A stretch of 64,000 nucleotides of DNA from the NCBI GenBank assembly GCA_015065065.1, contig SVQX01000003.1, forward strand, positions 21,930-85,929. Reading direction: 5' to 3'. Below, piece by piece: positions 4,884-61,500 of this stretch. Source of the stretch: Oscillospiraceae bacterium. Its GTDB lineage: Bacteria; Bacillota; Clostridia; Oscillospirales; CAG-272. Both the position numbers and the translations under genes were made by a program. Numbering within the stretch: position 1 is the first letter of the stretch; each line of letters opens with the position of its first letter. The notes below the pieces were generated by a model, which worked only from the letters and a program-made list of their open reading frames with translations, did no database searches and had not been told where the DNA came from.

Positions 4884-5576
4884 ATGACTTACGCAGTTGC
4901 AAATTTACACGGAAATTATCAGAAATACAGCGAGCTTTTACAGCTCATAAAATTCAACAATGACAGAGATATTCTGTACGTTCTCGGCGACATCGTGGAT
5001 TACGGCACGGAATCCATGGAGCTTATCGGCGACATGAGCATCCGCCTCAACGTCTACCCTATTGCGGGTGAGCATGACTACAAGGCTGTAAAGATGCTGT
5101 CGGGCTTTGAAAAAATGCTTAAAAGCGGTGCCTCGCCCGATGCGGATTTCGTCACGGAAATGACCGAATGGGTAAAGGACGGCGGCGAGCCCACGCTTTC
5201 CGCGTACCGCGAGCTTGATGCGGATATGCGCGAGGGCGTTATCGACTATCTGTCGGATATGCCACTTTACGAGGAGGTCGAGGTGGGCGGCAAGACTTAC
5301 CTGCTTTTGCACGCGGGAATTGCTGATTTTACCCCTGACGTTGACCTTGATTCCCTGTCCCCCGATGACTTTTTCTCTACTCCCATCGACCCGCAGAATA
5401 AATACTTTGACGATAAGATAATTATCGCAGGACACACCTCCACCGCCGAGGATAACGGCGGTGACGGTAAGATATTCCACGGCAACGGCACTATTATTAT
5501 CGACTGCGGACTTGCCTTTGGCGGCGCTCTCGGCTGTATCCGCCTTGAGGACGGACGGGAATTTTATGTCCGTTAA
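4884..5576 (+). CDS. calcineurin-like metallophosphoesterase
   Basis: ATG 4884 follows GGGAGG; the track start 4878 is a GTG. Motifs ANLHGN, GDIVDYG, GEHD and AGHTS. Confidence 0.7.
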   Translation: MTYAVANLHGNYQKYSELLQLIKFNNDRDILYVLGDIVDYGTESMELIGDMSIRLNVYPIAGEHDYKAVKMLSGFEKMLKSGASPDADFVTEMTEWVKDGGEPTLSAYRELDADMREGVIDYLSDMPLYEEVEVGGKTYLLLHAGIADFTPDVDLDSLSPDDFFSTPIDPQNKYFDDKIIIAGHTSTAEDNGGDGKIFHGNGTIIIDCGLAFGGALGCIRLEDGREFYVR

Positions 5577-6996
5577 AGGAAATGCGGACAAGCTCGGCCT
5601 TGTCGGAAAAGAATTTGTCGTGGATATCCGCGATCTCAATAACCTTGGCGCAGGTGTCGGCAGACTACCCGTTGTCGGTAACGGCGACGGGCTTGTGGTA
5701 TTTGTAAGGGGCACTGTCAGCGGCGATGTGGCGCAGATTGAAATAATCAAGGAAACGTCCTCATTTTGCGTGGGACGGCTTATCCGTATCGTCACCCCCT
5801 CCCCCGTCCGCGATACCGAAAAATTTTGCTCCGCCCCGGAGGCGTGCGGCGGCTGTGTTTACAGACACGTGACCTACGCGCACGAGCTGGAATGTAAAAA
5901 GCAGCGCGTTATCCGCGCCTTCCGTGTGGCGGGAATTGCGGATGCAAACGTGCTTGACGTGCTGTCAACGGGCAAAACAAGGGGCTACCGCAACAAAGGC
6001 ATGTATCCTGTCGCGCAAGGAAAAAATGGTATGTATTCGGGATTTTTTGCATCTAAATCGCACAAGCTCATTCCTGCCGAAAATTGCTCGCTCCAGCCCG
6101 AAATATTCAGTAATATCGTCCGTGCCGTTTGTGATTTCTGCAATAAAAACGCTGTAAAGGCTTACGACGAAATAAGCGGCAAGGGGCTTTTGCGGCATAT
6201 CTATCTTCGCGCAACAGCGGCAGGCGAGGTCATGCTCTGCCTCGTTATCAACGCCGAGGATATCGGAAAAGCCTTACGCGGCAAGCTTATCGAATACATA
6301 ACCGAGAGATTTCCGGCAGTGACGGGAATTCTGCTCAACGTCAACAAAAAAAGCACCAACGTGGTGCTTGGCGATAAATTTCTTACCGTTTGGGGACAGG
6401 CGTATATTGAGGATGTGCTGTGCGGAAAGATACTGCGGATCGCGCCCGAGTCCTTCTATCAGGTCAACCGCGATGCGGCAGAGCTGCTCTACAACACCGC
6501 CGCGGATATGGCAGATCTTACGGGTAAGGAGCATCTGCTCGACCTTTACTGCGGCGCTGGAAGCATTGGAATTTCTATGTCCGACAAGGTAAAAAGCATT
6601 ACGGGAATTGAGATAGTCCCCGAGGCGGTGGAGTGCGCCAAGCTCAACGCGAGCCTCAACGGACTCTCCCCCGACCGCGCGAGATTTTTTGCGGGAGATG
6701 CCACGGATGCCGACCGACTTTTGTCGGCGGCGGAGGGCGGCGGCGCACCCAAAGCGGATATCGCCGTCATTGACCCGCCCCGCAAGGGCACGACACGGGA
6801 GCTTATCGAGGCGATAGCAAAGCGGAATATCAACCGCGTGGTCTATATTTCCTGCGAGCCCGAAACTCTCGCCCGTGACTGCGCGGTTTTCCGGGAGCTT
6901 GGTTATCAAATGAGCGACGTTCAACCCGTAGATTTGTTCCCGAGGACAGGACACGTCGAGAGTGTCGTGTGTCTGACACGACGACTCGACAACTAA
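5566..6996 (+). CDS. rlmD: 23S rRNA (uracil-C5)-methyltransferase RlmD/RumA
   Basis: ATG 5566 is preferred; the track start 5461 overlaps the upstream gene. Cys cluster CSAPEACGGCVYRH, SAM motif LDLYCGAGSIG, DPPRKG, and C-terminus DLFPRTGHVESVVCLTRRLDN. Confidence 0.85.
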   Translation: MSVKGNADKLGLVGKEFVVDIRDLNNLGAGVGRLPVVGNGDGLVVFVRGTVSGDVAQIEIIKETSSFCVGRLIRIVTPSPVRDTEKFCSAPEACGGCVYRHVTYAHELECKKQRVIRAFRVAGIADANVLDVLSTGKTRGYRNKGMYPVAQGKNGMYSGFFASKSHKLIPAENCSLQPEIFSNIVRAVCDFCNKNAVKAYDEISGKGLLRHIYLRATAAGEVMLCLVINAEDIGKALRGKLIEYITERFPAVTGILLNVNKKSTNVVLGDKFLTVWGQAYIEDVLCGKILRIAPESFYQVNRDAAELLYNTAADMADLTGKEHLLDLYCGAGSIGISMSDKVKSITGIEIVPEAVECAKLNASLNGLSPDRARFFAGDATDADRLLSAAEGGGAPKADIAVIDPPRKGTTRELIEAIAKRNINRVVYISCEPETLARDCAVFRELGYQMSDVQPVDLFPRTGHVESVVCLTRRLDN

Positions 6997-7184
6997 GTTC
7001 GCCTACGGCGAGTGAAGTTGCTGCGCAGTGAAGTTTCGGCTACTGCCGAAGTGAAGTTTGCGCCACGAGTGGCGCAAGTGAGAAGTAACTTTGGGGTGAA
7101 CTTAACTTCACTTTGCGACGAAGGAGCAAAACTTCACTGTGAACGAAGTGAACGACTTCACTTTTGCGTAGCAAAAACTTCACC
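6952..7184 (+). repeat. Direct repeat copy A (233 bp): last 45 nt of rlmD plus a palindromic GTGAAGT/ACTTCAC hairpin module
   Basis: About 92 percent identical to 9390-9623, and the first ~70 nt are identical. Contains hairpins TTCGGCTACTGCCGAA and TGCGCCACGAGTGGCGCA, three GTGAAGT motifs and four ACTTCAC motifs. Confidence 0.9.
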
Positions 7185-7286
7185 AAAAGTCAGGGACAAA
7201 TGTGAGTTTCGAGCAAAACTCGAAAATACAATTTACAGCAGTTTAGTATAACATATCGAAGTTTCTATAAAGGAGGTGTAAGGCCT

Positions 7287-8243
7287 ATGACAAGTACCAA
7301 AAGAATTTTATTTGTTGTTTTCATACTGATATTTCTCACTGGGATTGCTATCGGTTTGGTAGGCAGATCAATGTGCACACGAGATAACGAAAACTATCAA
7401 AAAGTGCAGGTAGAACTGTTTGCCCCAGACGAAATTGCTACGGTTTTACATGATGAAGATCTACATCAAATTTATGTATGCTATAATGATGCCTCCTATG
7501 TAAATGTCTATTCTGAAGAAGGCCGATTTCTTTGGGCGGTATCGACGCCGTATTTAAGAAATGTGTACTTTGAGCTTTCCAATAATCAACTCATTGTATA
7601 TAATTCTGCTGATGCTTACATTTATGATTCATCAAACGGAACTTTTGTTGAAAAGAAAAAATCAGATGATATTGATTTGAGTTACGATTGGGAAAACGAA
7701 TATACGGACGAATTCCAAGACGGCGAATTTTATTTTGATACATATCAAGTCTACAAGGCGCAAGAAGATGGATCACTGGCTACAGTCGTTGCACGTTCGT
7801 GGTGGTACTGGGTATTTAATTTTGGTGTTTGCTGGTGCGTATCGTTTGTCGGTGCTATTGGAATGGGAACTATCATTTTTCTTGAAAAACGGAAAGAGTA
7901 TCGAAAAACGCAGAAAGCTATACAGCCTTCAAAGCATTCAATCGTAATAGAAAATCGCAAAGCAAGGTTTATTCTGAAATACTTTCGGATTACCTCGATC
8001 ATTCATGTGATTTATGCCATTTTAGATATTGTTTTTGGACTTTTGCTGAATGGCATTCTTTGCATAGGCATTTTGCCGCTTGCAATTCATTTTATTATAT
8101 CCAACATCGTTATATGGAATATGCTTGATCATATTCGTCTCACAGAGGACGAACAAACGATAATCGATTATTGGAAGGTTTGTGAAACAGGTACTTTTAT
8201 AATCGCATTCTTGTCTGTTATCGTCGCAGCAATGCTGGCATAA
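7287..8243 (+). CDS. cassette ORF: multi-pass membrane protein (318 aa)
   Basis: RBS AAAGGAGG. N-terminal TM segment, a soluble middle part and several C-terminal TM segments. AT-rich relative to its neighbours. Confidence 0.6.
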   Translation: MTSTKRILFVVFILIFLTGIAIGLVGRSMCTRDNENYQKVQVELFAPDEIATVLHDEDLHQIYVCYNDASYVNVYSEEGRFLWAVSTPYLRNVYFELSNNQLIVYNSADAYIYDSSNGTFVEKKKSDDIDLSYDWENEYTDEFQDGEFYFDTYQVYKAQEDGSLATVVARSWWYWVFNFGVCWCVSFVGAIGMGTIIFLEKRKEYRKTQKAIQPSKHSIVIENRKARFILKYFRITSIIHVIYAILDIVFGLLLNGILCIGILPLAIHFIISNIVIWNMLDHIRLTEDEQTIIDYWKVCETGTFIIAFLSVIVAAMLA

Positions 8244-8244
8244 A

Positions 8245-8336
8245 ATATACCTTTTGGCTTTACAACCCCCGTTTTTGGCATAAAAATATACCTTTTGGTC
8301 TTATGACCCCATCGAGAGTGTCGTTTGTCTGACACG
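8245..8336 (+). repeat. cassette junction J1: two ATATACCTTTTGG boxes plus an rlmD-3'-end mimic
   Basis: Boxes at 8245-8257 and 8286-8298. Core CATCGAGAGTGTCGTTTGTCTGACACG at 8310-8336. Confidence 0.85.
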
Positions 8337-8353
8337 GAAATAACCGCAAAACC

Positions 8354-8427
8354 CGTAGGGGCGATTCACGAATCGCCCGGCAGACCACAAAAAAATCAAA
8401 ACGGGCGATTCATGAATCGCCCCTACG
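8354..8427. repeat. inverted pair of REP-like palindromes (GGGCGATTCACGAATCGCCC)
   Basis: CGTAGGGGCGATTCACGAATCGCCCG at 8354-8379 and its inverted copy at 8402-8427. A third copy lies in the prophage at 48089-48113. Confidence 0.85.
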
Positions 8428-8537
8428 AAATCCGAATTCAAATTGCCCCAATTTTGCGTTGGGACTGTTGCTTTTGAGCAAAACCCAAATGTTCATTTAC
8501 AGCAGTTTAGTATAACATATCGAAAGGAGCTGCCTTG

Positions 8538-9026
8538 ATGAAAGCTAAAATGAAAATCAAATATCGAAAGCTTTGGCTATTTATGATCGGTGTTGCATTT
8601 TTGTTGACATTGCTCGTTTCAATGGCAGCAGCTTTTATTACTGAAGATCATAACTATGCTCTGGCGATTTTATGTTTATTGCTTGATGTTGTAATTCTTG
8701 TCGCTACTTATTTCCGTTTTAATTATGGAATAACGATCACTGAAAAACGTGTAGTAGCCATCGAGCAAGCAGGAATTAAAATACTGCGATATGACGATGT
8801 AAGCAGTATTCTTGTGGAATTTACCGACGAAAGTGTTGTTGCTTACATAAAAATGAAAAATCAGAAGCAATATACTTTTGTTTGGGACAGCGTATTCTTG
8901 GGAACAAACGTTATTCTGCCATCTCACAACAAAATTAAAGTATATGATGAATGGGTGGAGAAAAGCATCGCGAATCTATCCAAATGCCCAAAGGTAAAAA
9001 TTCAAAACTTTTATACCACAAAATAA
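8538..9026 (+). CDS. cassette ORF: small membrane protein with two TM segments and a PH-like soluble part (162 aa)
   Basis: ATG 8538 follows AAAGGAG. It shares its 5' leader with the ORFs at 7287 and 10081. Confidence 0.55.
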   Translation: MKAKMKIKYRKLWLFMIGVAFLLTLLVSMAAAFITEDHNYALAILCLLLDVVILVATYFRFNYGITITEKRVVAIEQAGIKILRYDDVSSILVEFTDESVVAYIKMKNQKQYTFVWDSVFLGTNVILPSHNKIKVYDEWVEKSIANLSKCPKVKIQNFYTTK

Positions 9027-9027
9027 A

Positions 9028-9120
9028 ATATACCTTTTGGAGTTTTTCCCCCCCCATTTTTGCCGATTTTTATACCTTTTGGAGTCTTGACCCAAGTGGA
9101 GAGTGTCCTGTGTCTTGCGA
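9028..9120 (+). repeat. cassette junction J2: two box copies plus a degenerate rlmD-end mimic
   Basis: ATATACCTTTTGG at 9028-9040 and TATACCTTTTGG at 9071-9082. Core AAGTGGAGAGTGTCCTGTGTCTTGCGA at 9094-9120. Confidence 0.8.
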
Positions 9121-9139
9121 GAAAATCAGGAGGAAATCA

Positions 9140-9328
9140 ATGAAAGCATTAAGAATTATTCAAAGCATCGGATATTTCGCTTTGTTTTTGGCATCGGTCT
9201 TTAATTTAGTAAATCAAATTGCAGAAAAACATATTTTTGGTCTTGCTATCACGCTACCGCTGTTTGTAATTGCGCTTGTAGGCATAATTTGCGGCATCAT
9301 TCTTATAACCAAGAACAGAAAAAAGTGA
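9140..9328 (+). CDS. cassette ORF: 62-aa two-TM membrane peptide
   Basis: AGGAGG RBS at 9128-9133, then MKALRIIQSIGYFALFLASVF. This is the internal start of track ORF 8951..9328. Confidence 0.5.
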   Translation: MKALRIIQSIGYFALFLASVFNLVNQIAEKHIFGLAITLPLFVIALVGIICGIILITKNRKK

Positions 9329-9330
9329 GA

Positions 9331-9389
9331 CCTTTTGGAGTTACCACCTCCGTTTTTAGTCTATTTTTATACCTTTTGGAGTCTTGACC
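9331..9389 (+). repeat. cassette junction J3 (box pair) abutting repeat copy B
   Basis: Sequence CCTTTTGGAGTTACCACCTCCGTTTTTAGTCTATTTTTATACCTTTTGGAGTCTTGACC. Confidence 0.8.
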
Positions 9390-9623
9390 CACGTCGAGAG
9401 TGTCGTGTGTCTGACACGACGACTCGACAACTAAGTTCGCCTACGGCGAGTGAAGTTGCAAGCAGTGAAGTTTCGGCTACTGCCGAAGTGAAGTTTGCGC
9501 CACGAGTGGCGCAAGTGAGAAGTAACTTTGGGGCGAACTTAACTTCACTTTGCGAGTGATGCGAGCAAAACTTCACTGTGAGCGAAGCGAACAACTTCAC
9601 TTTTGCAAAGCAAAAACTTCACC
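9390..9623 (+). repeat. Direct repeat copy B of the rlmD 3' end plus the GTGAAGT hairpin module
   Basis: See copy A. It includes a complete copy of the last 45 nt of rlmD with the TAA stop. Confidence 0.9.
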
Positions 9624-9646
9624 AATAATCCCAAAGGAGAAAAGCT

Positions 9647-10012
9647 ATGAAAGATTCAGAACTGCGAACAATAGCAAAAGCTCTTGCTCTACATATAATC
9701 GCCGTCTGCGATGAGATAGATACTCGCAAAGGCAGAGGTGTGCTCGTAAATCAAATTATCAGAAGTGCGACCTCTATAGGAGCAAATATTCACGAAGCGA
9801 ATTATGCGGCAAGTAAAGCTGATTTTATAAACAAATTTCATATCGCACTCAAAGAATGTGGAGAAACCGAATATTGGGTTGAAATGCTCGTTGGCTCAAA
9901 TGCAATAAGCGAACAAATCGCAAAAGAACTTTTGCAGGACTGTGGTGTCATTCGCCGTATGCTTGTAAAATCCATCACCACCGCAAAGGGAAACGCTAAC
10001 GGGCAAACGTGA
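9647..10012 (+). CDS. four-helix-bundle protein (23S rRNA intervening-sequence protein / Avd-like family)
   Basis: Family signature IIRSATSIGANIHEANYAASKADFINKFHIALKECGETEYWVEML. Confidence 0.8.
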   Translation: MKDSELRTIAKALALHIIAVCDEIDTRKGRGVLVNQIIRSATSIGANIHEANYAASKADFINKFHIALKECGETEYWVEMLVGSNAISEQIAKELLQDCGVIRRMLVKSITTAKGNANGQT

Positions 10013-10080
10013 TTTTCGAGCAAAACTCGAAGCTCTAATTTACAGTTGTTTAAAATAACTTATCAAAGGATGTGGCTGAT

Positions 10081-10794
10081 ATGGAAAAAATAATCACTTA
10101 TGAAACCCTACGCAATTTTGCGTATTCAAACGACTCGCTCATCAAAGGTGCAATCAAAGGTATCGTACTGAATTTTTACGGCTTAGGTGGTATGACTATA
10201 CATAACACCGATCCGGGTGATGCACTGGAATATGCGGAAAAAGGTATTATTTACGTTATTCCGTATTATAACCCTTGGTCTTGGATGAACAAACAGGCAG
10301 TTGCATATACGGACGAGATCATTTCTGTTCTGTGCGAAAAATACGGATTAGGTTCTTCGGTTAAAATCGTATCGACCGGAGGTTCTATGGGTGGGCTTTC
10401 CGCGCTTGTGTATTGCGCTTATGCTAAAATAACACCGTGCGCCTGTGTTGCGAACTGCCCCGTTTGCGATCTTCCGTATCACTTCACCGAACGCCCCGAT
10501 CTTCCACGCACCTTATACAGTGCCTTCGGCGAATATGATGGAGATATGCAATCGGCTTTGCGTAGCTGCTCCCCTTTACATCTGGTTGAAAAAATGCCGA
10601 ATATCAGCTACACGGTTTTTCATTGCACCAGCGATAAATCCGTTAATTTGGAACAGCATTCGAAACGCTTTGCGGAAGCAATGGGGGCTACCCATACTAT
10701 TAATCTTAATATCGTGCCTTGGCGCGGGCATTGTGATCTTTCCGCAGAAGCAAGGGTTGATTACAACCAAACGATTCTTAAGGTATTCGAATAA
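10081..10794 (+). CDS. alpha/beta hydrolase
   Basis: ATG 10081; the track start 10072 is a GTG too close to the RBS. Nucleophile elbow GGSMGG. Shares the cassette leader at 10013-10067. Confidence 0.65.
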   Translation: MEKIITYETLRNFAYSNDSLIKGAIKGIVLNFYGLGGMTIHNTDPGDALEYAEKGIIYVIPYYNPWSWMNKQAVAYTDEIISVLCEKYGLGSSVKIVSTGGSMGGLSALVYCAYAKITPCACVANCPVCDLPYHFTERPDLPRTLYSAFGEYDGDMQSALRSCSPLHLVEKMPNISYTVFHCTSDKSVNLEQHSKRFAEAMGATHTINLNIVPWRGHCDLSAEARVDYNQTILKVFE

Positions 10795-10830
10795 AATATA
10801 CCTTTTGCGGTTCCCTCCCATGTTGAAAAT
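10795..10830 (+). repeat. degenerate cassette junction J4 (single box, no rlmD mimic)
   Basis: TAA fused to AATATACCTTTTGCGGTTCCCTCCC. Confidence 0.6.
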
Positions 10831-10861
10831 TTAGTTTGTTTGATGAAAAAGGAAAATAAAT

Positions 10862-12013
10862 ATGAAAGCTGTAATTGCGATAGATTCTTTTAAAGGCAGC
10901 CTTAATACTTTTCAGTCGGGAGCTGCGGTTACGGATGCGATACGCACCGTGTATCCCGATGCAGAAGTAAAAGTGTGTCCATTAGCAGACGGGGGAGAGG
11001 GTACGGTTTCAGCCGTTGTTTCTGCCCTTAATGGAGAAATATGCGAGGTTGAGGTTTGCGGTCCTCTCGGCGAAAGGGTTGTTGCGGAATACGGAGTTAT
11101 ATCCTCAAAAAAGCTTGCGGTTATTGAGATGAGTGCGGCGGCGGGTATTACACTCGTCCCCGACGAAAAAAGAAACCCCCTCAACACCACAACCTACGGT
11201 GTGGGCGAGCTTATACTTCACGCAATAGAAAAAATGGAGTGCCGACACTTTTTGATCGGCATCGGTGGCAGTGCGACAAACGACGGCGGCTTAGGTATGC
11301 TTTCCGCACTCGGCTTTGAATTTCTTGATAAAGACGGAAAGACCGTTTCCCATTTCGGCAAGGGGCTTCGAGACATTGTGAGAATAGACGCAAGCAGGTG
11401 CTTGCCTTCCCTTAAAAAATGCAGTTTCCAAATTGCCTGCGACGTTAACAATCCCCTTTGCGGAGAGGTTGGTTGTAGCAGAATTTACGGTCCGCAAAAG
11501 GGTGCAACCGAAGAAATAATATGCGACATGGATGCGTGGCTTTCAAACTATGCAGTCCTTACAAAGTCTGTGTTTAAAAACGCCGACGCAAGCTATCCCG
11601 GAGCAGGGGCTGCGGGTGGTCTCGGCTTTGCCTTTCTATCATATCTACATGCTTCTCTCACATCGGGAATAGAGCTTGTAATACGAGTTACAGAGCTTGA
11701 AAAACAAATACAGGACACCGATATAGTAATTACAGGCGAGGGTAGACTTGATGCACAGTCTTGCATGGGTAAGGCACCTGTCGGAGTAGCGAAGGCTGCA
11801 AAAAAATACGGGAAACCGGTCATCGCTTTTTCGGGTGCGGTTACAAAAGATGCAGGACTTTGCAATGAATACGGAATAGATGCGTTTTTTCCAATCGTCC
11901 GTACCCCCTGCTCACTAAAGGATGCCATGGATGTAGACAACGCTTATACCAACTTGAAAAATACTGCCGAACAAGCATTCAGGCTTATAAAAACATTCTC
12001 AAAAATCATGTAA
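10862..12013 (+). CDS. glxK: glycerate kinase
   Basis: Motifs MKAVIAIDSFKGSL, ADGGEGT, GGSATNDGG, and GEGRLDAQSCMGKAPVGVA. Confidence 0.85.
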   Translation: MKAVIAIDSFKGSLNTFQSGAAVTDAIRTVYPDAEVKVCPLADGGEGTVSAVVSALNGEICEVEVCGPLGERVVAEYGVISSKKLAVIEMSAAAGITLVPDEKRNPLNTTTYGVGELILHAIEKMECRHFLIGIGGSATNDGGLGMLSALGFEFLDKDGKTVSHFGKGLRDIVRIDASRCLPSLKKCSFQIACDVNNPLCGEVGCSRIYGPQKGATEEIICDMDAWLSNYAVLTKSVFKNADASYPGAGAAGGLGFAFLSYLHASLTSGIELVIRVTELEKQIQDTDIVITGEGRLDAQSCMGKAPVGVAKAAKKYGKPVIAFSGAVTKDAGLCNEYGIDAFFPIVRTPCSLKDAMDVDNAYTNLKNTAEQAFRLIKTFSKIM

Positions 12014-12107
12014 ACCGAGACTTTTTGCTTTCTCCCCCCCGTTTTTGGCACAAAAATATACCTTTTGTACTCCCCACCCACATCGAGAGTGTCGTGTGTC
12101 TCACACG
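12014..12107 (+). repeat. cassette junction J5 (terminal): box, C-run, box, rlmD-end mimic
   Basis: CCCCCCCGTTTTTGGCACAAAAATATACCTTTTG precedes the core CACATCGAGAGTGTCGTGTGTCTCACACG at 12079-12107. Confidence 0.85.
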
Positions 12108-12376
12108 CACTATTGGACGGATTTATCAGACGAATTATTTCCTAATGTTTTTACATAACAATTCGCCCGAGATCCTTTGCTACATCGCCCCACGTTGTCA
12201 TTCTGGAGCGCAGCGAAAAATCTCGTGGGGCAACTCCGCTTAAGGATGACACGGGCGAAATAAACGCCGAAATACAATATTAAAAACAACAGATGTTACG
12301 GCCTTCTAAAAACATATTTTGACGTCATACTCACCATCCCTGCCAAGACTTAACTTCAAAATAAAGGAGTCTCACT

Positions 12377-13042
12377 ATGAAGCTTCTCATCAGCGCACTT
12401 ACAAAATTCATATTTGGCATTATCCTTGTGGGAATAATGCTTTTTCTGCCCGCATGGACGTTCTGTTACCCCGGCGCGTGGCTGTTTTTAGGCGTGCTTT
12501 TTATTCCTATGCTCATAGTTGGCGCGGTACTGTACGTCAAGTCCCCCGCCCTGCTTGAAAAGCGCCTTGACAACAAGGAAAAGGAGAAAACTCAACGCGG
12601 AGTGGTCGCGCTTTCGGGGCTGATGTTCCCCGTTGGATTTATATTGTCGGCGCTTGATTTCCGCTTTGACTGGTCGAGCGTTCCCGCGTGGCTGTCCATC
12701 GCGGCGGCAGCATTGTTCCTTGGCGGCTACGGCATGTACGCCGAGGTAATGCGCGAGAACGCCTACCTTTCGCGGACGGTTGAGGTGCAATCGGGACAAA
12801 AGGTTATCGACACGGGGCTTTACGGTATTGTGCGCCACCCTATGTATCTCGCAACGCTCTTCATGTTTCTCCCCATTCCGCTTATTCTCGGCTCGCTTTG
12901 GGGGCTTATTCCCTTTGCAATCTATCCCGTGGTTATAGTAATACGGATACTTAATGAAGAAAAGGTACTCACAGAGCAGCTCCTTGGCTACTCGGAATAC
13001 AAAAAGAAAGTTAAATACAGACTCATTCCCTTTGTGTGGTAA
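12377..13042 (+). CDS. membrane methyltransferase, ICMT/PEMT-like family
   Basis: Multi-TM protein with the motif GLYGIVRHPMYLATLFMF. Confidence 0.7.
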   Translation: MKLLISALTKFIFGIILVGIMLFLPAWTFCYPGAWLFLGVLFIPMLIVGAVLYVKSPALLEKRLDNKEKEKTQRGVVALSGLMFPVGFILSALDFRFDWSSVPAWLSIAAAALFLGGYGMYAEVMRENAYLSRTVEVQSGQKVIDTGLYGIVRHPMYLATLFMFLPIPLILGSLWGLIPFAIYPVVIVIRILNEEKVLTEQLLGYSEYKKKVKYRLIPFVW

Positions 13043-20133: not shown

Positions 20134-20210
20134 GGCGGAATAGCTCAGTTGGCTAGAGCATTCGGTTCATACCCGACAGGTCGTTGGTTCAAGTCCGACT
20201 TCCGCTACCA
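20134..20210 (+). tRNA. tRNA-Met (anticodon CAT), CCA encoded
   Basis: Cloverleaf folded by hand: acceptor GGCGGAA/TTCCGCT, D-arm GCTC..GAGC, anticodon loop TTCATAC, T-arm GTTGG TTCAAGT CCGAC. Confidence 0.85.
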
Positions 20211-20213
20211 AAA

Positions 20214-20289
20214 GGCCCGTTGGTCAAGAGGCCTAAGACACCGCCCTTTCACGGCGGTAACAGCAGTTCGAATCTGCTACGGGTCACCA
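20214..20289 (+). tRNA. tRNA-Glu (anticodon TTC), CCA encoded
   Basis: GGCCCGTTGGTCAAG...CCCTTTCACGGCGG...GTTCGAATC...ACGGGTCACCA, the classic tRNA-Glu pattern. Confidence 0.85.
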
Positions 20290-27909: not shown

Positions 27910-30900
27910 TTATTTACTTGTCTTTTTACTGTCACGGTAGTCCTCAAACCACTTTTCCGTGACCTTAAGCACGTCGTTTGAATCGCCGTAAAGCCCCGAG
28001 CGAGTGAGCAAGGAGCGAATGCGCTTAAGCTCAGCAGCATCCTTCGCCTCCCGCGCCGCGAGATATTTCTTTTTCCAATAGGACGTTACCGACGAGCGCA
28101 CAGCGCTCCGCGCCGCCTTCTCCGTCTTGCCGATAGCAACCCTTGACGCCACAAGATCGTCGAGTATGACCTTTGCCTCCTTGAAGTCACCTCGGTCAAG
28201 CTCCGAATTCAGCATTGAGGAATTGTAAATAGAGGACGCTACCTGCGTTGACTCCTCATCCTTGTTGTCCTCAGCGCCGCTCTCGATATCCTTCATAATA
28301 TCGTTGTACTCCGCATTGACGGCAGCCTTGACCGTTTTCTCGTCAAAGAATCCCTCCGCCATTACCTCGCGCACAAGCTTGGAATAGGTGCTGATATCGC
28401 CGTCCACTCTCGCCTGAGCCGCGTCGCGGATGCGCTCATCATTATCGCGCAGAGCCGTGCGTAAAGCGTTGTTAAGCTTCACTTCGCTGTCAAAACGCTT
28501 CAGTACACGGTTGTAATGCGCCTTGTCGCCGCTGATGATAGCATTGTAAAGCTGCTGACCGTTGGAGATATCAGCATCAACGCCAAAGAACTTTTTCAAA
28601 GGAACAATACCGGCAGCTCCCGTAGCAAAAGCGTATTTGTAGCCAACAGCCGTATTTCCATCACCGTCAGCATTGGTAAGTACATTATATATACCTCGTG
28701 CATCTCGATACAAATTACGGGTTGGCAGACCAAAGAACGTACCTACATTAGCGCCAAGATTCATTGATTTTTGCGCCCATGTTTTTTCACTTGAGCTCAT
28801 ATCCTGTACCGACTGAATAAGATCTGCAAAAACAGCGATATCCGTGCGTTCCACGTCGTAACCTTGCGCCAACGACCAAATATCCTTGACATAAGGCAAT
28901 ACTGTCAGCGGATTGAACGCATCCGTTATTTCCGACGTTAGCGATTCGAGGTATTTTTCACCGTAGTTTTTCTCCTCGTCATCATCACGTGCCGCGTATA
29001 CTAATGAAGCAAGTATAGCATTAAGAATAAGGGATCCCGCTATACATCCCACCGATCGGCGGAAGGTCTTGACGTCGCCGCGTTGAAGCTTTACAGAAGC
29101 GCCCACAAGCATATTAACCATAGTAGTAGGCTCAGCCATAAAGGACATTGCCATTTTCCAGCCCGTATCTTTAGAGCGCATCATCTCGCTGCGGGACAGC
29201 GTAGAATCGTATACCTGAGTCCGAACAACAGCCTCTGTAAACCTCTCGCCGGCTAATGTAAGAAGCTCCTCAGAATCGGGAGAAAGCTCCTTGTGAAGAT
29301 CGGTCTGCTCCTTTTTGCACGCTTCCCAAAGTCCGAGCCAAGCAAGCTGGTCAGCCTTGGCAGCACCGTATCCAAATACGCGATCACGGTAGTTCTTGTC
29401 CTTGATAAACGCCATAGGCTTTTCCTTCAGACTGTATTCCCGCTCCATGATATAATCGCCGGTAGCTTGTCCCACGCCCGTGTCAAAGCCGCCCATCTCC
29501 TTGACAATAGCCACGGGAGCATATTCCTTCAATTCCTCCCACAGCTCGCGGCTCTTTTGAGGGTTATATCCCGTGTTGACAAAATACTTAGCGTCGATCA
29601 GCTCCCAAGCGCGGCAGATAGACGTCGGCTGCTGGATGATCGTCGACCACGACGCCATCACTGCGGATTTTTTGAAAAGACTTATACCCTTGTCAATGGC
29701 ATTCGTAGGCGTTCCGCTACGCACACCGCCGTTAAGATCTCGCAGGAGCTGTTCTATGTATTTTATCGCCTCCGGACCGTATTCCTTGTTTATACTGTCC
29801 TTGAAGGAGTAGGACGGCAGATCATCCTTGTAAGGCGTACCGCTCCATTCTCCCGTATCCTTGTTCAGCTCCGCAGAACGTCGGTAGTTAAGTATTTTGC
29901 TTAGATTCTCCGTAGCTAACGCCATTCCGTGGTATAGACTCATATCGTTTACGTGCCGTGTCCATACCTCCATAAAATCGCGGAGTACGAGCGTATTAGT
30001 GGCTCTTTCCTCGGGATCAATGGCGATCTGCTTAGTCATACTCTTGTTGGTGATCTTGCTGTCCCCGGTGCGCCCCGTTTGACTATTGACTTGGGTATCA
30101 AGCACCTCCATCGGGAAATAGTGCTTGTCCCCGAACAGCGCGGCACCGTATAATTGCACGGAAACCTCGTTACCCTTCTCGCCCATAACAACCGACAAGT
30201 ATTCGATCATATCATCCGCAAAGGCGCGTTGCTCGTCACTCAGCGCACGCGTGATCTCCTCGGCAGTCTTATCGTCCAGCCGATAGCGTTCAAAATCGTT
30301 TTTGACTCTTTCCTCTCCCCATTTGCCCTTTTCCACCGTTTCGGAATGGAAAGCAAAGCCACCGTTTGTCAAATGGTGATACGCAGGGGGACGGTTGATA
30401 AGAGCATAGAGCGAAAGAATCTCTCCAAGCGTGAGCTTTACTTTTTTACCGTTAGCGACCTCGAATTCACGTTTGGACTCGAAATCCCAATCCCAGTAGT
30501 GATGCTTTTCGGCAACCGATTTGAATTTCTTTTCGGCATCCGCGCAGTCTTTTGCCCACACACCTTCGCCGCGTTGCAAGCTCCAGAATATACTCATCAT
30601 AGAGTCCGAGCCAAAGATCTCAAAGGCATATACGGGCTTGAGCGCCTTCCAAATGTATTTGCGCACGGAGGATAGCACTCCCACCTCGTTAGGCTTTGGC
30701 TTCATAAATGCAGGCTTTTTTGATTTCTCGACTTCCTCTATAGTATCCTCTACGAAAGCGTCAAGCTCTGCCTGCTTGCCGTCAAGGAATAATTGATTTG
30801 CGGTGCCCACGCGGGTAAGAATTGCATTGTAAAACTCCTTCGCCGACCTCAGCTGTACAAGTGTCATATCGGCGATAGGCGTATCTCCCACCACTCTGCG

Positions 30901-33900
30901 ATGCTCTGATAGCATACCGCTTATTTCCTCGTCGAACATACCCTGTACCGTATCGCTGCCCGAGGCTGTTATCTGCGCATACAACTGCGAAAGGAAGGTC
31001 ATCTGCTCCTGTATGCCGGCAGCTTTCCTTTCCCACTTTTCTCTCTTTTCAAGCTGTTCATTAAGAGCCTTGCTGACATCCGCGCCCTTGTTTGCACGTT
31101 GTGTAAGCCGCTCAATTTCCGCATTGATCTTAGCAATATTCTGCACGCCCACCGTATCCATATTGGTGGAGGATAAAGCCTCGGCAACGGCTCTTTGCAT
31201 TTCAGGCGGAATATGCCATTTTTTATTGGGCACGAACAGCATACTGTTCAAACGGTCGATTTCCTTCCTCAAGGAGTTTCGCGCTGCTGTGGTGTCCTTT
31301 CCAAGCTGACGGTCATCATACATTTTCTTGTACTTTGCCTTAGCTTTATATACCCTTCTCTCCTCTCGCTCCTTGACTTTGAAAAGCCTTTTTTCATACG
31401 ATTCCTTTGTCCTTTGCAGCTTTTCTGCGTCTCTTTGACGAGTCTTATTTGCAGCTTGCTTTTTGGCGTGCTGAATTAGCTCGCGGATAGGCTTTGTCGC
31501 CTGAAGCTTTAACAGCTTTTTATCCTGCTCGGTAATCATACTGTCAGCATCATCTATCTGACGTTTGATTTCGTCCTTTGCTTTTTTCAGCTCCACTATC
31601 TCCGCGTCTATCCAACTGTCCGACTCAGCCTCTGTTGTAACCATGTCCGTTCCGTTTGCATCAGGGCTTGGTTCCTCGAACATTCGTTTTTTGATACCCT
31701 TAAGCTCGTTTATCCGCTTTACGACCTCAGCATGTGCCTTTTTTAATGTCTTGCGTTTTTCAACCACGGCGTCAAGCTCCGTCAACTGCTCACGGTACTC
31801 CTTGAGCGCATTGTATTCGCCCTTCGACCGCACCGCTCCTTCTAAAGCTCCTGACAAAATTTCTCTGTCTGTCGCAGGCTTTTCGGGTAAGATCTCACCT
31901 TCCACAGCATACTCATCCATACTTGTAAAGGGTTCAATGCCGGTGTTAGCATCATCTACTGAAAATTTTTTTGATGGGGTATTGACTTTTGAGTCAGAAT
32001 ATGTTACAATATCTTTCGCAAGGTCGACAATGCGTGACACCTCGGAAGGTTGGATTCCTATGGTGGCGAGCATTTGTTCGGCCTTATTTTTGTTTATTAT
32101 AACAAGCATGCCTTGTTCTGCCGCTTTTACTAGCCGATCGGCAAAATCATCCCACGGATATGCACTTTTAATTTGGTTGACTATATCATTCTCCATATTC
32201 TGTTTTTTGTGAACCCCAACTATGACATAAGATGCTTTGCCGTTGGTATCGTTCATTGGATACGAAGTAATAACAGTCGCCTTTTCTGCGCCATCTATAA
32301 TCATAGGGGCGCTATCCAAAAGTTTTGGCAACTTCGCAAAGAAATCATAAGGAACAGCGTGCGCAGAATAATTTTTATTATTTCCTGCTGTTCGCCTTGG
32401 CTTTCTATAGTCGGACTGATTCATAGCAAACGGCAAATTGGAAAACATTTGTGATAGTGAGATAATCTCCCCTATATATAACGAGTTACTGCCGTTTATA
32501 CTTTTTTGTTCGACCGCTTGCAGCTGTTTGTCCCAATCTATTTTTTGGGTTTGTTTAATGCTATATCTTATGCCCGTTACATCAGCATCCTTCCCGCTCC
32601 GTCGTGCATCTCCCGCCTCCGTCACCGCTTCATAGAACAGCTGCTTGATATTATCAAGACTGTCCATCGTGTCGGAAAGCACCTGCGCCGTCTTTGACGT
32701 ACCGCTCAAGGTTGCATAAGCCGCCTTCACGAGGTCAACGACGCGAAGGACAACGTCCTTTATCTTCTCCCACAAGGTCTTGTCCCGAGCTGCAAGCTTG
32801 CCCAGCACCTCGCCGTCCGCAAGTATAAGCTCCATGCCGTCGCATACGACCTCCTCACGCGCAAGCTCCCGCGCCTGCACCTCCGTCGCACCCTTGGGTA
32901 AAAGCCCCGCCGCTCGCAGCGCCTCAACCTTTGCATCAATCAAGGATTCTACTGTAGGGACAGGCGTCCTCGACTGTCCGTCTGCGAGCCGCTCAAAAAC
33001 AAACTCCGCGAGCGCCGCGTACTTCTCCCCCGACCACGCCTTGACATAATGCGTCACCTCGTGGGAAAGCGTGTAAAGAGCAATATGCTCGCCGTCCCGC
33101 ATGGCGTTGATGTTGACGTGGATCTGTCCCGTTTTCTCGTCAAAATAACCGTTTACGGCTTTGCCGTTCTTGGTCTGCCCGAGATCCGCGTGGATAACGA
33201 TATCCGTGCCCAGCGCCCGCGCCATGATCTCCGCCGCCTTGTACGCCGAGTACTGACGGTCGCTGAGCTTTTGCATATTCACGCCCTCCGCGCGGATAAC
33301 TCTGCCCTCCCGCGAAGAACGTCGAAAACTTTTTTCGTCCGAGGTGTTGACAGAACCGTCCGTGTGTGGTATACTGTTAATGGTAGCAATGCCGTCACGA
33401 AGCGTCTTGGACGTAGGCTGTGGGCGATCCTCGGATTGCATATTCAGCACTTGACCGTTGCTACCTTTTTCTATACGTGCGCTTACTATGTATATTCTCT
33501 TGGCGCTGCTGTCAGGAACACATTCCACGACAATCATTTTGGAATCTCCGATTTCCTTTTCCAACATTACCTTGGGCGAAGGGCTTTGGTCGGAATTCTT
33601 GTACTGCGTATCATAATCTACGGAGCCGTCATCCTCGCGTGCAATATGAGCAGACTCTGCGTTATTCGCCGCCCATCCTATACGAGCAACGTCCCTGGGA
33701 TCCTTCATAGATTGGTCGGCATCGCCATTCTTGCCATGTCTGTCTTCAATATGCTGTATCGCGCCGCCGTCAATATAAAGATCGTATCCGGAAACGTCTA
33801 TCGTTTTGCCGGTTTCTTTTTTTATGACCTTTTCTATCAGACGTGCGTGCTTTTCTGATATCCTTCCAAGCTTCTTTTTGCGCTTCGACAAAATAGACTT

Positions 33901-60522: not shown

Positions 60523-60605
60523 AAATCTAAAAATAGATTTTGTCAATAGAAAAAATCTATTTTTAGAGTTTTCTACCTTTTGCCTAAAATCTAAATTTAG
60601 AATTT
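60523..60605. promoter_or_regulatory. operator triad upstream of the cI-like gene
   Basis: Three TCTA-N4-TAGA palindromes at 60526-60537, 60556-60567 and 60590-60601. Confidence 0.65.
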
Positions 60606-60630
60606 GTTAAAAACAAACAAGGAGGTTTTT

Positions 60631-61500
60631 ATGTTTTACACCAACCTGCAAAAAATATGCAAAGAGCGCGGCACAACGCCAACAGCCGTGGCCAAAGCCA
60701 TAGGTATCAGCACATCTATGACTGCCAATTGGAAGAAAGGCGGTATGCCGCGTGGCGACACCCTGCAAAAGCTCGCCTCTTATTTCGGCGTAACCACCGA
60801 CTACCTACTCGGTTCCGAGTTGACAACCATTGCTTTTGCAGAACCTAATGAACTTAACGGATACACTATGTTCAAACAAAATTTCATTCGACTGTGTAAT
60901 CAAAAAGGCGAATCCCCTTCGGCTGTATGCATTAAGGTAGGCATAACCCCTGCCACTTTTTCCTGCTGGACGGACGAGTCCGTTCCGCGTAAAGCAACCC
61001 TTATGAGAATAGCCGACTATTTCGGCGTATCTGTTAACTACCTGCTCGGCACCGAAAAAGAAAACGCGCCCGGCATAAAACCGAACGCAATATTTTTGGA
61101 GGAAAAGAATGTCCACCTCATCCCCGTGTACGAAACTGTGTCCGCAGGCTTCGGTGCTTTGGCGGATAACAGCATAATTGATTATACCCCCCTCTATTTC
61201 ACAAGCGCGGCAGAGGCGGCGGAGACCATCTGCATAAAGGTCAAGGGAGACAGCATGTACCCCAAGATCGAGGAAGGCGACGTAATACAGGTGCATAAAA
61301 CGGATAGCGTTGACAGCGGCACTATTGCCGTCGTGCTGCTTGACGGCGACGAGGGACTTGTCAAGCGCGTGGAGTACGGCGAAAGCTTTATCGAGCTGCA
61401 GTCCATAAATCCTATGTACCCGCCCATGCGCTTTGAGGGAGCCGATACGCTCCGCATCCGCATCCTCGGCGCGGTAAAGAAAATTATCAAGAGTATCTAA
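60631..61500 (+). CDS. cI/LexA-like repressor with two tandem HTH domains and an S24 peptidase domain
   Basis: ATG 60631 follows GGAGG. HTH 1 TAVAKAIGISTSMTANW and HTH 2 SAVCIKVGITPATFSCW. Motifs VKGDSMYP and LVKRV (Ser/Lys dyad). Confidence 0.8.
   Translation: MFYTNLQKICKERGTTPTAVAKAIGISTSMTANWKKGGMPRGDTLQKLASYFGVTTDYLLGSELTTIAFAEPNELNGYTMFKQNFIRLCNQKGESPSAVCIKVGITPATFSCWTDESVPRKATLMRIADYFGVSVNYLLGTEKENAPGIKPNAIFLEEKNVHLIPVYETVSAGFGALADNSIIDYTPLYFTSAAEAAETICIKVKGDSMYPKIEEGDVIQVHKTDSVDSGTIAVVLLDGDEGLVKRVEYGESFIELQSINPMYPPMRFEGADTLRIRILGAVKKIIKSI

What the first reader, a model, noticed from the sequence alone, without database searches (positions are those of the whole stretch)
6952..12107. 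Integron-like stack of small gene cassettes on the 3' end of rlmD; every junction re-creates the rlmD C-terminal coding motif and no recombinase is nearby
Seen in sequence: the end of rlmD (CACGTCGAGAGTGTCGTGTGTCTGACACG..., encoding HVESVVCLTR) recurs four more times downstream in the same orientation. The copies are at 8310-8336, 9094-9120, 9390-9434 (a full copy inside a 233-bp, ~92 percent direct repeat of 6952-7184) and 12079-12107. Each secondary copy is preceded by the same 60-90 bp junction: ATATACCTTTTGG, a C-rich run, GTTTTTGGCA, a second ATATACCTTTTGG, then GACCC. In three cassettes the ORF stop codon is fused to the first box (TAA-AATATACCTTTTG at 8241, 9024 and 10792). Three ORFs also share a ~55-bp leader, TTTCGAGCAAAACTCGAA-N-ATTTACAGCAGTTTAGTATAACATATCGAAAGGAG, at 7207-7260, 8472-8524 and 10013-10067. 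The delimited segments are 0.27-2.5 kb and carry 1-3 same-strand genes of unrelated function: three small membrane proteins, a four-helix-bundle protein, an alpha/beta hydrolase and glycerate kinase. Inference: this looks like serial site-specific insertion of promoterless mini-cassettes into the rlmD 3' end, each regenerating the gene end. That resembles integron or CIME accretion, but there is no attC-type symmetry and I recognise no integrase or transposase among the host genes in the window (1-22 kb). I do not know of a described system with this architecture.
Basis: partly seen in the sequence, partly recalled or inferred. Interest (0 to 1): 0.82.

Follow-up and report, generated by a model that had tools for sequence, protein, structure and literature searches.

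The report
Mobile gene cassette array behind rlmD
Five small, swappable gene cassettes sit one after another behind the rRNA methyltransferase gene rlmD, each ending in a conserved 55-95 bp tag that rebuilds the end of rlmD; the same integron-like arrangement, with no recombinase gene beside it, occurs in well over a hundred species of uncultured gut Clostridia and seems not to have been described.

Summary
The last conserved codons of rlmD (about 29 nt, HVESVVCLTR) recur four times downstream on the same strand. Each copy is preceded by a conserved junction with one or two ATACCTTTTGG boxes. A fifth, decayed junction at 10793-10839 splits the last segment, giving five cassettes.

It lies directly behind rlmD in 52 of 62 loci with enough upstream sequence.

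- Units measure 287-4848 bp and nearly always carry one same-strand ORF whose stop codon lies in the first box.
- One 297-bp cassette (window 9092-9389) is 100% identical inside six genomes whose rlmD DNA is only 64-72% identical.
- Strains of one species differ in cassette content.

No recombinase lies in the window or in about 1 Mb of flanks. The one exception is a rumA-type large serine recombinase integrated at a core copy (L046). The junction has no attC-like fold and is absent from the phage, viral-contig and plasmid collections.

Best reading: an integron-like cassette array built by Campbell-type recombination at the rlmD end. The enzyme would act in trans, and homologous recombination between junctions reshuffles the cassettes. 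The enzyme is unidentified.

The parts
5518..6996 (+). rlmD (23S rRNA m5U methyltransferase, RumA family). Its last 10 conserved codons are the array's proximal recombination site. Its final 5 codons (RRLDN) and stop come from cassette 1.
   Evidence: Pfam TRAM + tRNA_U5-meth_tr. The 492-aa identical product P0001 is on record. Homologues end in HVE[SNTC]VVCL followed by more than 40 different short tails.
6951..6980 (+). Core copy 1, the attB/attI-like site inside rlmD: ACACGTCGAGAGTGTCGTGTGTCTGACACG.
   Evidence: (D4). PSSM score 44.9. In 49 of 62 loci the first detected core is the end of rlmD; in 3 more rlmD lies further upstream with its own core below threshold.
6981..8336 (+). Cassette 1. 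Contains the new rlmD tail and stop (6981-6996), Gut-1-like hairpin repeats (6990-7185, with no four-helix-bundle gene here), the leader (7194-7261), a 318-aa membrane ORF (7287-8243), a two-box junction (8241-8306) and core copy 2 (8307-8336).
   Evidence: (D3, D5, D7, D8). The same cassette occurs in L018 and L073 and in strain L190.
8337..9121 (+). Cassette 2. Contains the inverted-repeat module (8340-8457, arms 8354-8379 / 8402-8427), the leader (8458-8525), a 163-aa membrane ORF (8535-9026), a two-box junction (9024-9091) and core copy 3 (9092-9121).
   Evidence: I1, D1-D4. Cassette family of 7 members, including L092 and L093.
9122..9418 (+). Cassette 3, the minimal type. Contains a ribosome-binding site, a 62-aa membrane ORF (9140-9328, stop TGA inside the box variant GTGAGACC), the junction (9322-9388) and core copy 4 (9389-9418). 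Core-to-core length is 297 bp.
   Evidence: The identical protein is indexed in 114 blocks of the collection, and the unit is always 297 bp. The interior is 100% identical in six divergent backbones.
9419..10839 (+). Cassette 4. Contains a tail identical to that of cassette 1, Gut-1-like repeats (9428-9624), a four-helix-bundle 23S_rRNA_IVP gene (9647-10012), the leader (10001-10068), an S9-type alpha/beta hydrolase (10081-10794), and a single-box junction with a decayed core (10792-10839).
   Evidence: (D3, D5-D8).
10840..12107 (+). Cassette 5. Contains glycerate kinase (10862-12013), a junction with a degenerate first box (12019-12077) and core copy 5 (12078-12107).
12108..12376 (+). Distal flank after the last core. 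It is non-coding and holds remnants of a hairpin-repeat module (GTCATTCTGGAGCGCAGCG ... AAGGATGACAC) of the kind that flanks a 79-aa GIY-YIG gene in L119. Conserved backbone genes follow (PEMT-like at 12377, APH at 13052).
   Evidence: The PEMT/APH synteny behind arrays is also seen in L055 and L014.

Best explanation
The region is an array of five mobile gene cassettes stacked behind rlmD.

Anatomy of a cassette:
- an optional 5' module;
- a ribosome-binding site and usually one ORF reading in the rlmD direction;
- a conserved 3' terminal element. This has one or two ATACCTTTTGG boxes, the first usually supplying the stop codon, then about 9 nt, (G)ACCC, and a copy of about 29 nt of the last conserved rlmD codons.

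Proposed mechanism (inferred): a cassette enters by a single reciprocal (Campbell-type) exchange between its own core copy and a resident core copy. The resident copy can be the one in rlmD or one already in the array. This duplicates the core, keeps RlmD intact up to ...CLTR, and gives it a new short tail. Minimal cassettes are then read through from rlmD.

No enzyme is encoded at the locus, so I infer that a recombinase acts in trans. The only concrete candidate is the rumA-specific large serine integrase family, whose own attP mimics the same codons. After insertion, homologous recombination between the 55-95 bp junctions reshuffles, replaces and deletes cassettes.

Shown: the anatomy, its wide distribution, the mobility of cassettes between divergent genomes, strain polymorphism, and the lack of a linked recombinase.
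Inferred: Campbell-type entry and the trans-acting enzyme.
For: 1. Repeats are far beyond chance and strictly co-oriented. The core PSSM gives 0 hits on the minus strands of 119 loci.
It lies directly behind rlmD in 52 of 62 informative loci, although RlmD is only 29-65% identical to the window's.
3. There are 144 complete units of 287-4848 bp. The longest ORF is on the + strand in 140 of 144. The stop lies 60-67 nt before the next core in most, and the start lies 10-20 nt after the core in about a third.
4. Horizontal mobility: the 297-bp ORF62 unit is 100% identical over 200 nt in six backbones whose rlmD DNA is 64-72% identical or unalignable. It sits at different positions in the arrays, including directly after rlmD.
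5. Strain polymorphism. L119 and L120 are about 100% identical up to the last 150 nt of rlmD, differ in cargo, and match again from the next core. L190 is 99.6% identical to the window through cassette 1 and then differs, with the break inside core 2.
6. Sequence linked to the downstream cassette starts sharply at core position +25 to +27. RlmD homologues share HVE.VVCL and then carry more than 40 different tails.
7. The core is a proven kind of att site. In L046 a large serine recombinase ORF runs into a core copy, as described for rumA-specific integrases (PMC4701971). Its relatives end in GACACA(C/T)GTNGAG.., mimicking HVE(T/S)VV.
8. L064 has an array headed by an orphan core behind an unrelated gene, where no flanking homology is available.
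Against: - No recombinase, transposase or reverse transcriptase family recurs among 286 representative flanking proteins, and none is in the window. The enzyme is therefore hypothetical.
- The serine integrase arm next to the core does not resemble the boxes, and no integrase-bearing contig carries boxes.
- Exchange points are not unique. A rare core variant travels with ORF62 in four contexts but not in three, and the junction to its right changes partner at about -30 or about -8. The junction is more diverged than the 100% identical cargo. These patterns fit homologous recombination or gene conversion better than a fixed cleavage point.
- No circular intermediates or empty sites could be looked for.
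Confidence: 0.5

Rival explanations
1. The locus is a recombinase-free hot spot. The conserved junctions are only portable homology. Cassettes are gained, replaced and lost purely by RecA-type homologous recombination, or by slippage between junction/core repeats, after DNA enters by transformation, conjugation or transduction. Loop-out between two junctions makes circles, and re-entry uses the 29-95 bp homology.
For: - Breakpoints lie at several positions within the junction and core.
- The last 150 nt of rlmD are mosaic in the otherwise identical pair L119/L120.
- The junction is more diverged than the identical cargo.
- No recombinase lies anywhere near 128 arrays.
Against: - It does not explain how more than 100 unrelated ORFs each acquired the same terminal element placed exactly at the stop codon.
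- It does not explain why that element mimics the rlmD end.
- It does not explain entry into naive sites, such as the orphan core behind a mutarotase gene in L064.
- It does not explain why a non-coding 55-95 bp sequence stays about 75-95% conserved across lineages whose RlmD is 29-65% identical to the window's, with two direct-repeat boxes typical of protein-binding sites.
- The spread of breakpoints leftwards from +26 is about what chance identity in a conserved core would give: roughly 33% observed against an estimate of about 35%.
Confidence: 0.3
2. The cassettes are debris. Repeated integration of large rumA-specific serine-integrase elements (ICEs or prophages), followed by imprecise excision or internal deletion, left small cargo fragments between att scars.
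For: - L046 shows such an element integrated at a core copy.
- rum/rlmD accretion of phages and ICEs is documented (PMC13651849; PMC4701971).
Against: - Junctions carry boxes, not integrase-gene 3' ends.
- Units are compact, ORF-precise and co-oriented in 140 of 144 cases, which random deletion remnants would not be.
- The same 297-bp unit recurs exactly in many genomes.
- Only 1 of 128 loci has the integrase, and the junction is absent from IMG/VR, INPHARED and PLSDB.
Confidence: 0.08
3. The region is an ordinary vertically inherited operon. The repeated junction is an intercistronic regulatory or RNA-processing element, and nothing here is mobile.
For: - All genes are co-oriented behind rlmD, there is no strong terminator, and the ribosome-binding site overlaps the end of the core.
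Against: - G+C drops by 10-15 points.
- Identical cassettes occur in divergent genomes and in different orders.
- Strains differ in content.
- There is no structural covariation in the junction.
- A regulatory element has no reason to copy rlmD codons.
Confidence: 0.03

Closest known systems
Integrons (intI-attI-Pc plus attC gene cassettes) and CALINs (attC clusters lacking an integrase)
   Same: Arrays of compact, mostly single-ORF, co-oriented cassettes, often promoterless. The recombination element is at the 3' end of each cassette and often contains the stop codon. Cargo is mostly of unknown function. Identical cassettes occur in different arrays. Like CALINs, there is no adjacent integrase.
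   Different: There is no IntI. The terminal element is not an imperfect palindrome and does not fold. The proximal site is the coding end of a housekeeping gene rather than attI. Boundaries are not at one fixed nucleotide. The hosts are Clostridia.
SCC / ECC cassette chromosomes at rlmH (orfX), mobilised by Ccr large serine recombinases (PMC6222049)
   Same: Serial insertion into the 3' end of an rRNA methyltransferase gene, with a direct repeat that regenerates the gene end at every joint. Tandem composites include units that lack their own recombinase and depend on one supplied in trans.
   Different: The target is rlmD, not rlmH. The repeat sequence is unrelated (no TATCATAA). Units are 0.3-5 kb with one ORF instead of 3-90 kb. 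ccr-type genes are absent from 127 of 128 loci.
rumA/rlmD-specific single serine integrases of ICEs and prophages (Streptococcus, C. difficile CTn5; PMC4701971)
   Same: The same target codons (HVE(T/S)VV). One such integrase, with attR inside its own gene, sits at a core copy in L046.
   Different: Those elements are tens of kb, carry their integrase, and have no ATACCTTTTGG boxes. Their exchange point appears to lie at the left edge of the core, whereas the cassette boundary lies at its right edge.
Site-specific accretion arrays and CIMEs (cis-mobilisable elements) next to ICEs (Pavlovic 2004 and Bellanger 2011, as cited in PMC13651849)
   Same: Integrase-less units bounded by att-like direct repeats accumulate in tandem at the 3' end of a conserved gene.
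   Different: CIMEs are decayed ICEs lying beside a cognate ICE. Here there are hundreds of different ORF-sized units sharing one terminal element, and no cognate element is in sight.
rAID-1 clusters of Bacteroidales (10.1101/471110)
   Same: Found in gut bacteria. Low-GC arrays of small co-oriented genes are separated by repetitive intergenic sequences 'reminiscent of integrons'.
   Different: rAID-1 is defined by a 5' XerD-like recombinase gene and by immunity-gene content. Neither was found here.

Membership tests
Integron | An integron-type tyrosine recombinase (intI) adjacent to the array | tested here: not met
   No Phage_integrase hit in window ORFs or among the called genes of the same-species locus L190. 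No tyrosine-recombinase motif in 3076 ORFs from all loci. No recombinase family with 2 or more members among 286 representatives.
Integron | attC sites: imperfect inverted repeats that fold as single-stranded hairpins | tested here: not met
   Single-strand DNA folds of three junctions on both strands gave z-scores of -0.65 to +0.65 for four and -2.4 and -1.7 for the pair at 12010-12110, where the stem lies in the core only. There are no long-range covarying columns in 173 junctions.
Integron | Compact co-oriented cassettes with the recombination site at the 3' end, shared between arrays | tested here: met
SCC/ECC cassette chromosome | Insertion in the 3' end of rlmH, with the att core TATCATAA | tested here: not met
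   The target gene is a TRAM + tRNA_U5-meth_tr protein (rlmD). The core sequence is unrelated (PMC6222049).
SCC/ECC cassette chromosome | ccrAB/ccrC large serine recombinases on at least one unit of the composite | tested here: not met
   tblastn with the L046 recombinase hits only L046 among 118 loci and the window, and none of 42 metagenome contigs.
rumA-specific serine-integrase ICE/prophage | An integrase gene at the element end with attR inside the gene, on an element of tens of kb | tested here: not met
   This is met by the element in L046 but by none of the window's cassettes, which are 0.3-2.7 kb and lack the gene.
rumA-specific serine-integrase ICE/prophage | The target is the HVE(T/S)VV-coding end of rumA | tested here: met
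   The same codons form the array's core.
REP / BIME / MITE dispersed repeats | Copies scattered over many unrelated intergenic sites, in both orientations | tested here: not met
   In the window all close box and core copies lie in 6951-12107. In other genomes 52 of 62 informative loci are behind rlmD. There are 0 minus-strand cores.
CIME / accretion next to a cognate ICE | att sites recognised by the integrase of a related autonomous element | not testable with these tools
No autonomous element carrying the box junction was found in IMG/VR, INPHARED or PLSDB.
rAID-1 | A 5' XerD-like recombinase and immunity-gene cargo, in Bacteroidales | tested here: not met
   No recombinase. About 45 cassette proteins give almost no Pfam hits and none to immunity families. 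The hosts are Clostridia.

The most novel reading that the evidence does not exclude
A previously unrecognised, integron-like gene-capture system is native to gut Clostridia (Oscillospirales and Christensenellales). It has a large pool of ORF-sized cassettes, each tagged by a 55-95 bp double-stranded, box-containing element that targets the coding end of rlmD. The cassettes would be moved by a dedicated, unlinked recombinase, or by a new use of rumA-type serine integrases, that has yet to be identified.
Probability: 0.35. Interest if true: 0.9.

Novelty: new variant of a known kind. Interest (0 to 1): 0.78.

Why it matters
Integrons are essentially absent from Firmicutes, and the way gut Clostridia exchange single genes is poorly known. 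Here a very large pool of ORF-sized units moves between family-level-divergent, uncultured gut species. All of them dock at one housekeeping gene.

If an enzyme is behind this, it would be a new cassette-capture system and a potential tool: a short double-stranded tag that directs single genes to a universal, conserved site.

If no enzyme is involved, the arrays show that short portable homology tags alone can sustain an integron-like gene market.

The cargo is almost entirely of unknown function, with many small membrane proteins. It marks a reservoir of strain-level variation in animal gut microbiomes. The finding also gives a genomic context to the orphan Rfam motif Gut-1 and to stand-alone four-helix-bundle (23S rRNA IVS protein) genes.

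Tried and rejected
- attC-like folding of the junction: single-strand DNA folds are no better than shuffles, and there are no covarying column pairs. Rejected.
- Dispersed REP or MITE: rejected.
- Known RNA families: only sub-threshold Gut-1 hits in the repeat blocks, and nothing for the junction or leader.
- Promoter or terminator function of the junction: consensus scans are at background. One weak TTTACA-17-AAAAAT match is not conserved in the other junction haplotype.
- Phage or plasmid origin: 0 true hits in IMG/VR, PLSDB and INPHARED.
- Linked recombinase: regex motifs, tblastn with the L046 integrase and Pfam on 286 representative flanking proteins found none apart from L046. That Pfam output lists only the 25 commonest families, so single occurrences could be hidden.
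- The prophage at 21.5-62 kb: portal, terminase, capsid and repressor were found, but no integrase in the ORFs scanned, and it has no relation to the array.
- Concerted evolution of junctions within one array: not seen, 0.754 against 0.739 identity.
- Similarity of the boxes to the serine-integrase attP arm or to the rlmD coding sequence upstream of the core: none by eye.
- Immunity-gene content of the rAID type: no Pfam support.
- Exact look-ups of the window's RlmD (476-aa start) and of the 318-aa protein found nothing on record. The 492-aa RlmD start did succeed.
- The metagenome scan gave only short contigs and added nothing.

Full report
**1. The observation**

The window carries rlmD at 5518/5566-6996 (TRAM + tRNA_U5-meth_tr). 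Its last conserved codons, CACGTCGAGAGTGTCGTGTGTCTGACACG (HVESVVCLTR), recur at 8307, 9092, 9389 and 12078 on the same strand (D4). A 23-nt version with up to 3 mismatches hits 4 times against 0 in 100 shuffles.

Each secondary copy is preceded by a conserved junction (D1/D2). The box ATATACCTTTTGG occurs 7 times in 8245-12068 and essentially nowhere else in 64 kb.

The other claims also hold:
- the 235-bp direct repeat 6952-7186 / 9390-9625 (D5/D7/D8; 94.5%);
- the three leader copies (D3);
- the stop codons fused to the first box.

A further single-box junction with a decayed core at 10793-10839 (D6) makes glycerate kinase its own unit, so there are five cassettes. G+C falls from 0.54 to about 0.40 over the array.

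**2. It is a widespread family, not a local oddity**

All were Clostridia MAGs from ruminant, pig, bird and human guts: Oscillospiraceae, Christensenellaceae, Acutalibacteraceae, Faecousia and Ruminococcus. Thirty-two short metagenome contigs also matched.

The consensus over 151 copies is TAAAATATACCTTTTGG-tTTACaACCCCCgTTTTTggc-AtttttAtACCTTTTGGAgTCTTGACCC-ACGTcGAgAGTGTCGTTTGTCTgACgAG.

A core PSSM finds up to six copies per 8 kb and none on the opposite strand. Of 62 loci with at least 1.3 kb upstream, 49 have an rlmD homologue ending exactly at the first core, and 3 more have it just upstream. That RlmD is only 29-65% identical to the window's.

**3. Anatomy of a unit**

There are 144 complete core-to-core units of 287-4848 bp, median about 780.
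- The longest ORF is on the rlmD strand in 140 of 144.
- Its stop lies 60-67 nt before the next core in most, that is, inside the first box (TAA of TAAAATATACC, or TGA of GTGAGACC). In a minority it lies 22-29 nt before the core, which is the single-box type.
- In about a third the start codon follows the core by 10-20 nt, with the ribosome-binding site overlapping the end of the core.

The other cassettes begin with one of two conserved 5' modules:
- an inverted-repeat module of about 130 bp followed by the leader;
- a block of short hairpins separated by a heptamer, then a four-helix-bundle gene (PF05635), then the leader.

The leader occurs 103 times in 73 loci, on the + strand only. It lies either about 170-205 nt or about 540-730 nt after a core.

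The minimal terminal element is about 55 bp: one box, 9 nt, ACCC and the core. The two-box form adds about 41 bp.

Of about 45 representative cassette proteins, almost none has a Pfam family, and many are small membrane proteins.

**4. The cassettes are mobile**

The 62-aa protein of window cassette 3 is indexed in 114 blocks of the collection. In every context read, the unit is exactly 297 bp core to core, with different neighbours and positions, and in L124 it lies directly behind rlmD.

Its interior (200 nt) is 100% identical in six backbones whose rlmD DNA is only 64-72% identical over partial alignments, or not alignable. Other cassette families are likewise shared between loci.

Evidence within species:
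- L119 and L120 are about 100% identical up to the last 150 nt of rlmD, carry different cargo, and become identical again at the next core.
- L190 has an identical RlmD and is 99.6% identical to the window over 8.3 kb, including cassette 1. It then diverges completely, with the break inside core 2.

RlmD homologues share HVE[SNTC]VVCL and then show more than 40 different short tails, as expected if the first cassette supplies the tail.

**5. No enzyme in cis**

Pfam scans of window ORFs show housekeeping genes around the array. A prophage lies at 21.5-62 kb next to tRNA-Met/Glu, with no integrase among the ORFs tested.

In about 1 Mb of flanks from 118 loci:
- relaxed motif searches find no tyrosine recombinase and a single serine recombinase;
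- no recombinase, transposase or RT family has two or more members among 286 representative proteins.

The junction is absent from IMG/VR (two chance hits only), from PLSDB and from INPHARED. It does not fold and shows only local haplotype linkage, with no base-pair covariation. It matches no Rfam family.

**6. The one recombinase, and what is already known about this target**

In L046 a 672-codon large serine recombinase ORF runs straight into a core copy, and a four-helix-bundle cassette follows. This is the hallmark of the rumA-specific single serine integrases of streptococcal ICEs and C. difficile CTn5, whose attR lies inside the integrase gene (PMC4701971).

Sixteen relatives (56-61% identical) in IMG/VR mostly end in ...GACACA(C/T)GTNGAG.. 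at the 3' end of the gene, or at the edge of the match, which mimics HVE(T/S)VV. So the core is a bona fide att site for a known enzyme family, and rum/rlmD is a known accretion hot spot (PMC13651849).

However, these integrase arms do not resemble the boxes. Their exchange point appears to lie at the left edge of the core. None of their contigs carries the junction.

**7. Where exchange happens**

Pairs of junctions sharing the downstream cassette but not the upstream one become identical sharply from core position +25 to +27. Pairs sharing the upstream cassette lose excess identity between about -33 and -21. The 55 bp in between are linked to neither neighbour and are not homogenised within an array.

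The leftward spread of breakpoints is about what chance identity in a conserved core predicts for a boundary near +26. There are clear exceptions, though:
- the rare core variant GTCCTGTGTCTTGCGAG accompanies ORF62 in four different contexts, including the rlmD copy, but not in three others;
- the junction to the right of ORF62 changes haplotype at about -30 in two contexts and near -8 in the others;
- that junction carries several differences while the cargo carries none.

Exchange is therefore not confined to one nucleotide position. Homologous recombination or gene conversion between junctions clearly contributes.

**8. Interpretation**

The anatomy argues for cassettes that enter by a reciprocal exchange at the core, with an enzyme acting in trans. 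The relevant features are:
- ORF-precise units;
- a terminal element conserved across lineages in which RlmD itself is only 29-65% identical to the window's;
- two direct-repeat boxes;
- mimicry of the gene end;
- an orphan-core array at an unrelated site (L064).

The variable breakpoints and the mosaic rlmD end show that homologous recombination then reshuffles the arrays. A purely homologous mechanism remains a serious rival (0.3). Debris of large integrase elements (0.08) and a non-mobile operon (0.03) are unlikely.

**9. Comparison and novelty**

Functionally the arrays behave like integrons or CALINs. Architecturally they resemble SCC/ECC composites at rlmH (PMC6222049) and CIME-type accretion. 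They share their target with rumA-specific serine integrases.

They fail the defining tests of each of these families: no IntI or attC, no ccr or rlmH, no integrase-bearing large element, and no XerD-type gene as in rAID-1 (10.1101/471110).

Full-text searches found no description of such cassettes. I classify this as a new variant of a known kind, namely cassette or accretion arrays at the 3' end of a conserved gene. There is a substantial chance that it is a distinct system once the enzyme is known.

Noticed in passing
window 6990-7185 and 9428-9624; L046 2960-3240, L101 5400-5680, L105 2350-2640: The blocks between a core copy and the four-helix-bundle gene (or the leader) consist of short hairpins separated by a heptamer. 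The heptamer is GTGAAGT(T) in the left half and its complement in the right half. Other loci use GCGATAT/ATATCGC. They give sub-threshold matches to the orphan Rfam motif Gut-1 on both strands (35.3, 29.9, 29.8 and 26.9 bits against a gathering score of 50), and the RNA fold has z = -4.6. Gut-1 may therefore be the flank of these four-helix-bundle modules.
   Followed up: partly
window 9647-10012; 33 members in 118 loci: The 23S_rRNA_IVP / four-helix-bundle gene (same Pfam family as DGR Avd, from memory) is the commonest gene in the arrays. Wherever examined it starts a unit directly after a core, and its 5' flank forms a hairpin with the core (register differs between module types). No reverse transcriptase is nearby. 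Cassette 1 of the window looks like cassette 4 with this gene precisely deleted.
   Followed up: partly
window 7194-7261, 8458-8525, 10001-10068: The leader extends to GGGACAAATGTGAgTTTYGAGCAAAACTCRAAA-N6-TTTACAGCAGTTTAGTATAACATATCGAAAGGAG. It has 103 copies in 73 loci, on the + strand only. The hairpin TTTYGAG/CTCRAAA shows compensatory changes by eye (T.G, C-G, T-A; G-C to A-T). There is no canonical sigma-70 spacing and no Rfam family, so its function is unknown.
   Followed up: partly
window 8354-8427: A 26-nt inverted repeat, 96% complementary (CGTAGGGGCGATTCACGAATCGCCCG / complement), belongs to a roughly 130-bp module. The module recurs right after cores in many loci (for example L119 8600-8700 and 10290-10400; L004, L019).
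   Followed up: partly
window 12150-12265; L119 9390-9640: After the last core the window holds remnants (GTCATTCTGGAGCGCAGCG..., ...AAGGATGACACGGGCG) of a hairpin-repeat module. In L119 this module flanks a 79-aa GIY-YIG gene that has been inserted into a junction between its two boxes. It may be another small selfish module that colonises these arrays.
   Followed up: no
window 21500-62000: A prophage on the minus strand next to tRNA-Met and tRNA-Glu (20134-20289). It has a P22-type portal, large terminase, capsid, BppU baseplate protein, a 2632-aa ORF (27910-35808), PcfJ-like and DUF3102 proteins, an S24/HTH repressor (60604-61500) and an Mrr-type nuclease (61516-62931). No integrase was seen among the ORFs scanned.
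   Followed up: partly
L046 770-3189; L129-L144: Large serine recombinases whose 3' ends mimic the rumA HVE(T/S)VV codons carry a direct repeat of about 25-33 nt of the arm sequence just upstream of the crossover (for example TTGTGTTCACATGACAGCAACGAGG / ATGTGTTCCGATAGTAGTAACGACAC in L130). L046 also has a second, truncated serine recombinase gene upstream.
   Followed up: no
L064 7040-7150: A cassette array headed by an orphan core copy, with no boxes and no rlmD, lies 65 nt behind a galactose-mutarotase-like gene. This suggests either secondary-site insertion or loss of rlmD.
   Followed up: no
L121 9247-10395; L098, L042, L052: In several genomes the array is followed by a second, TRAM-less rlmD-type methyltransferase paralogue. 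In these cases the cassettes lie between two rumA-family genes.
   Followed up: no
L190 12790-12830 versus window 8307-8336: In a strain with identical RlmD, core 2 is truncated after CACATCGAAA and fused to a leader. Everything downstream differs from the window, including the backbone (CN_hydrolase/GDPD, GH20 and GH43 instead of PEMT, APH and SNF2). This is either a strain-level rearrangement with its breakpoint in the core or a metagenome mis-join.
   Followed up: partly
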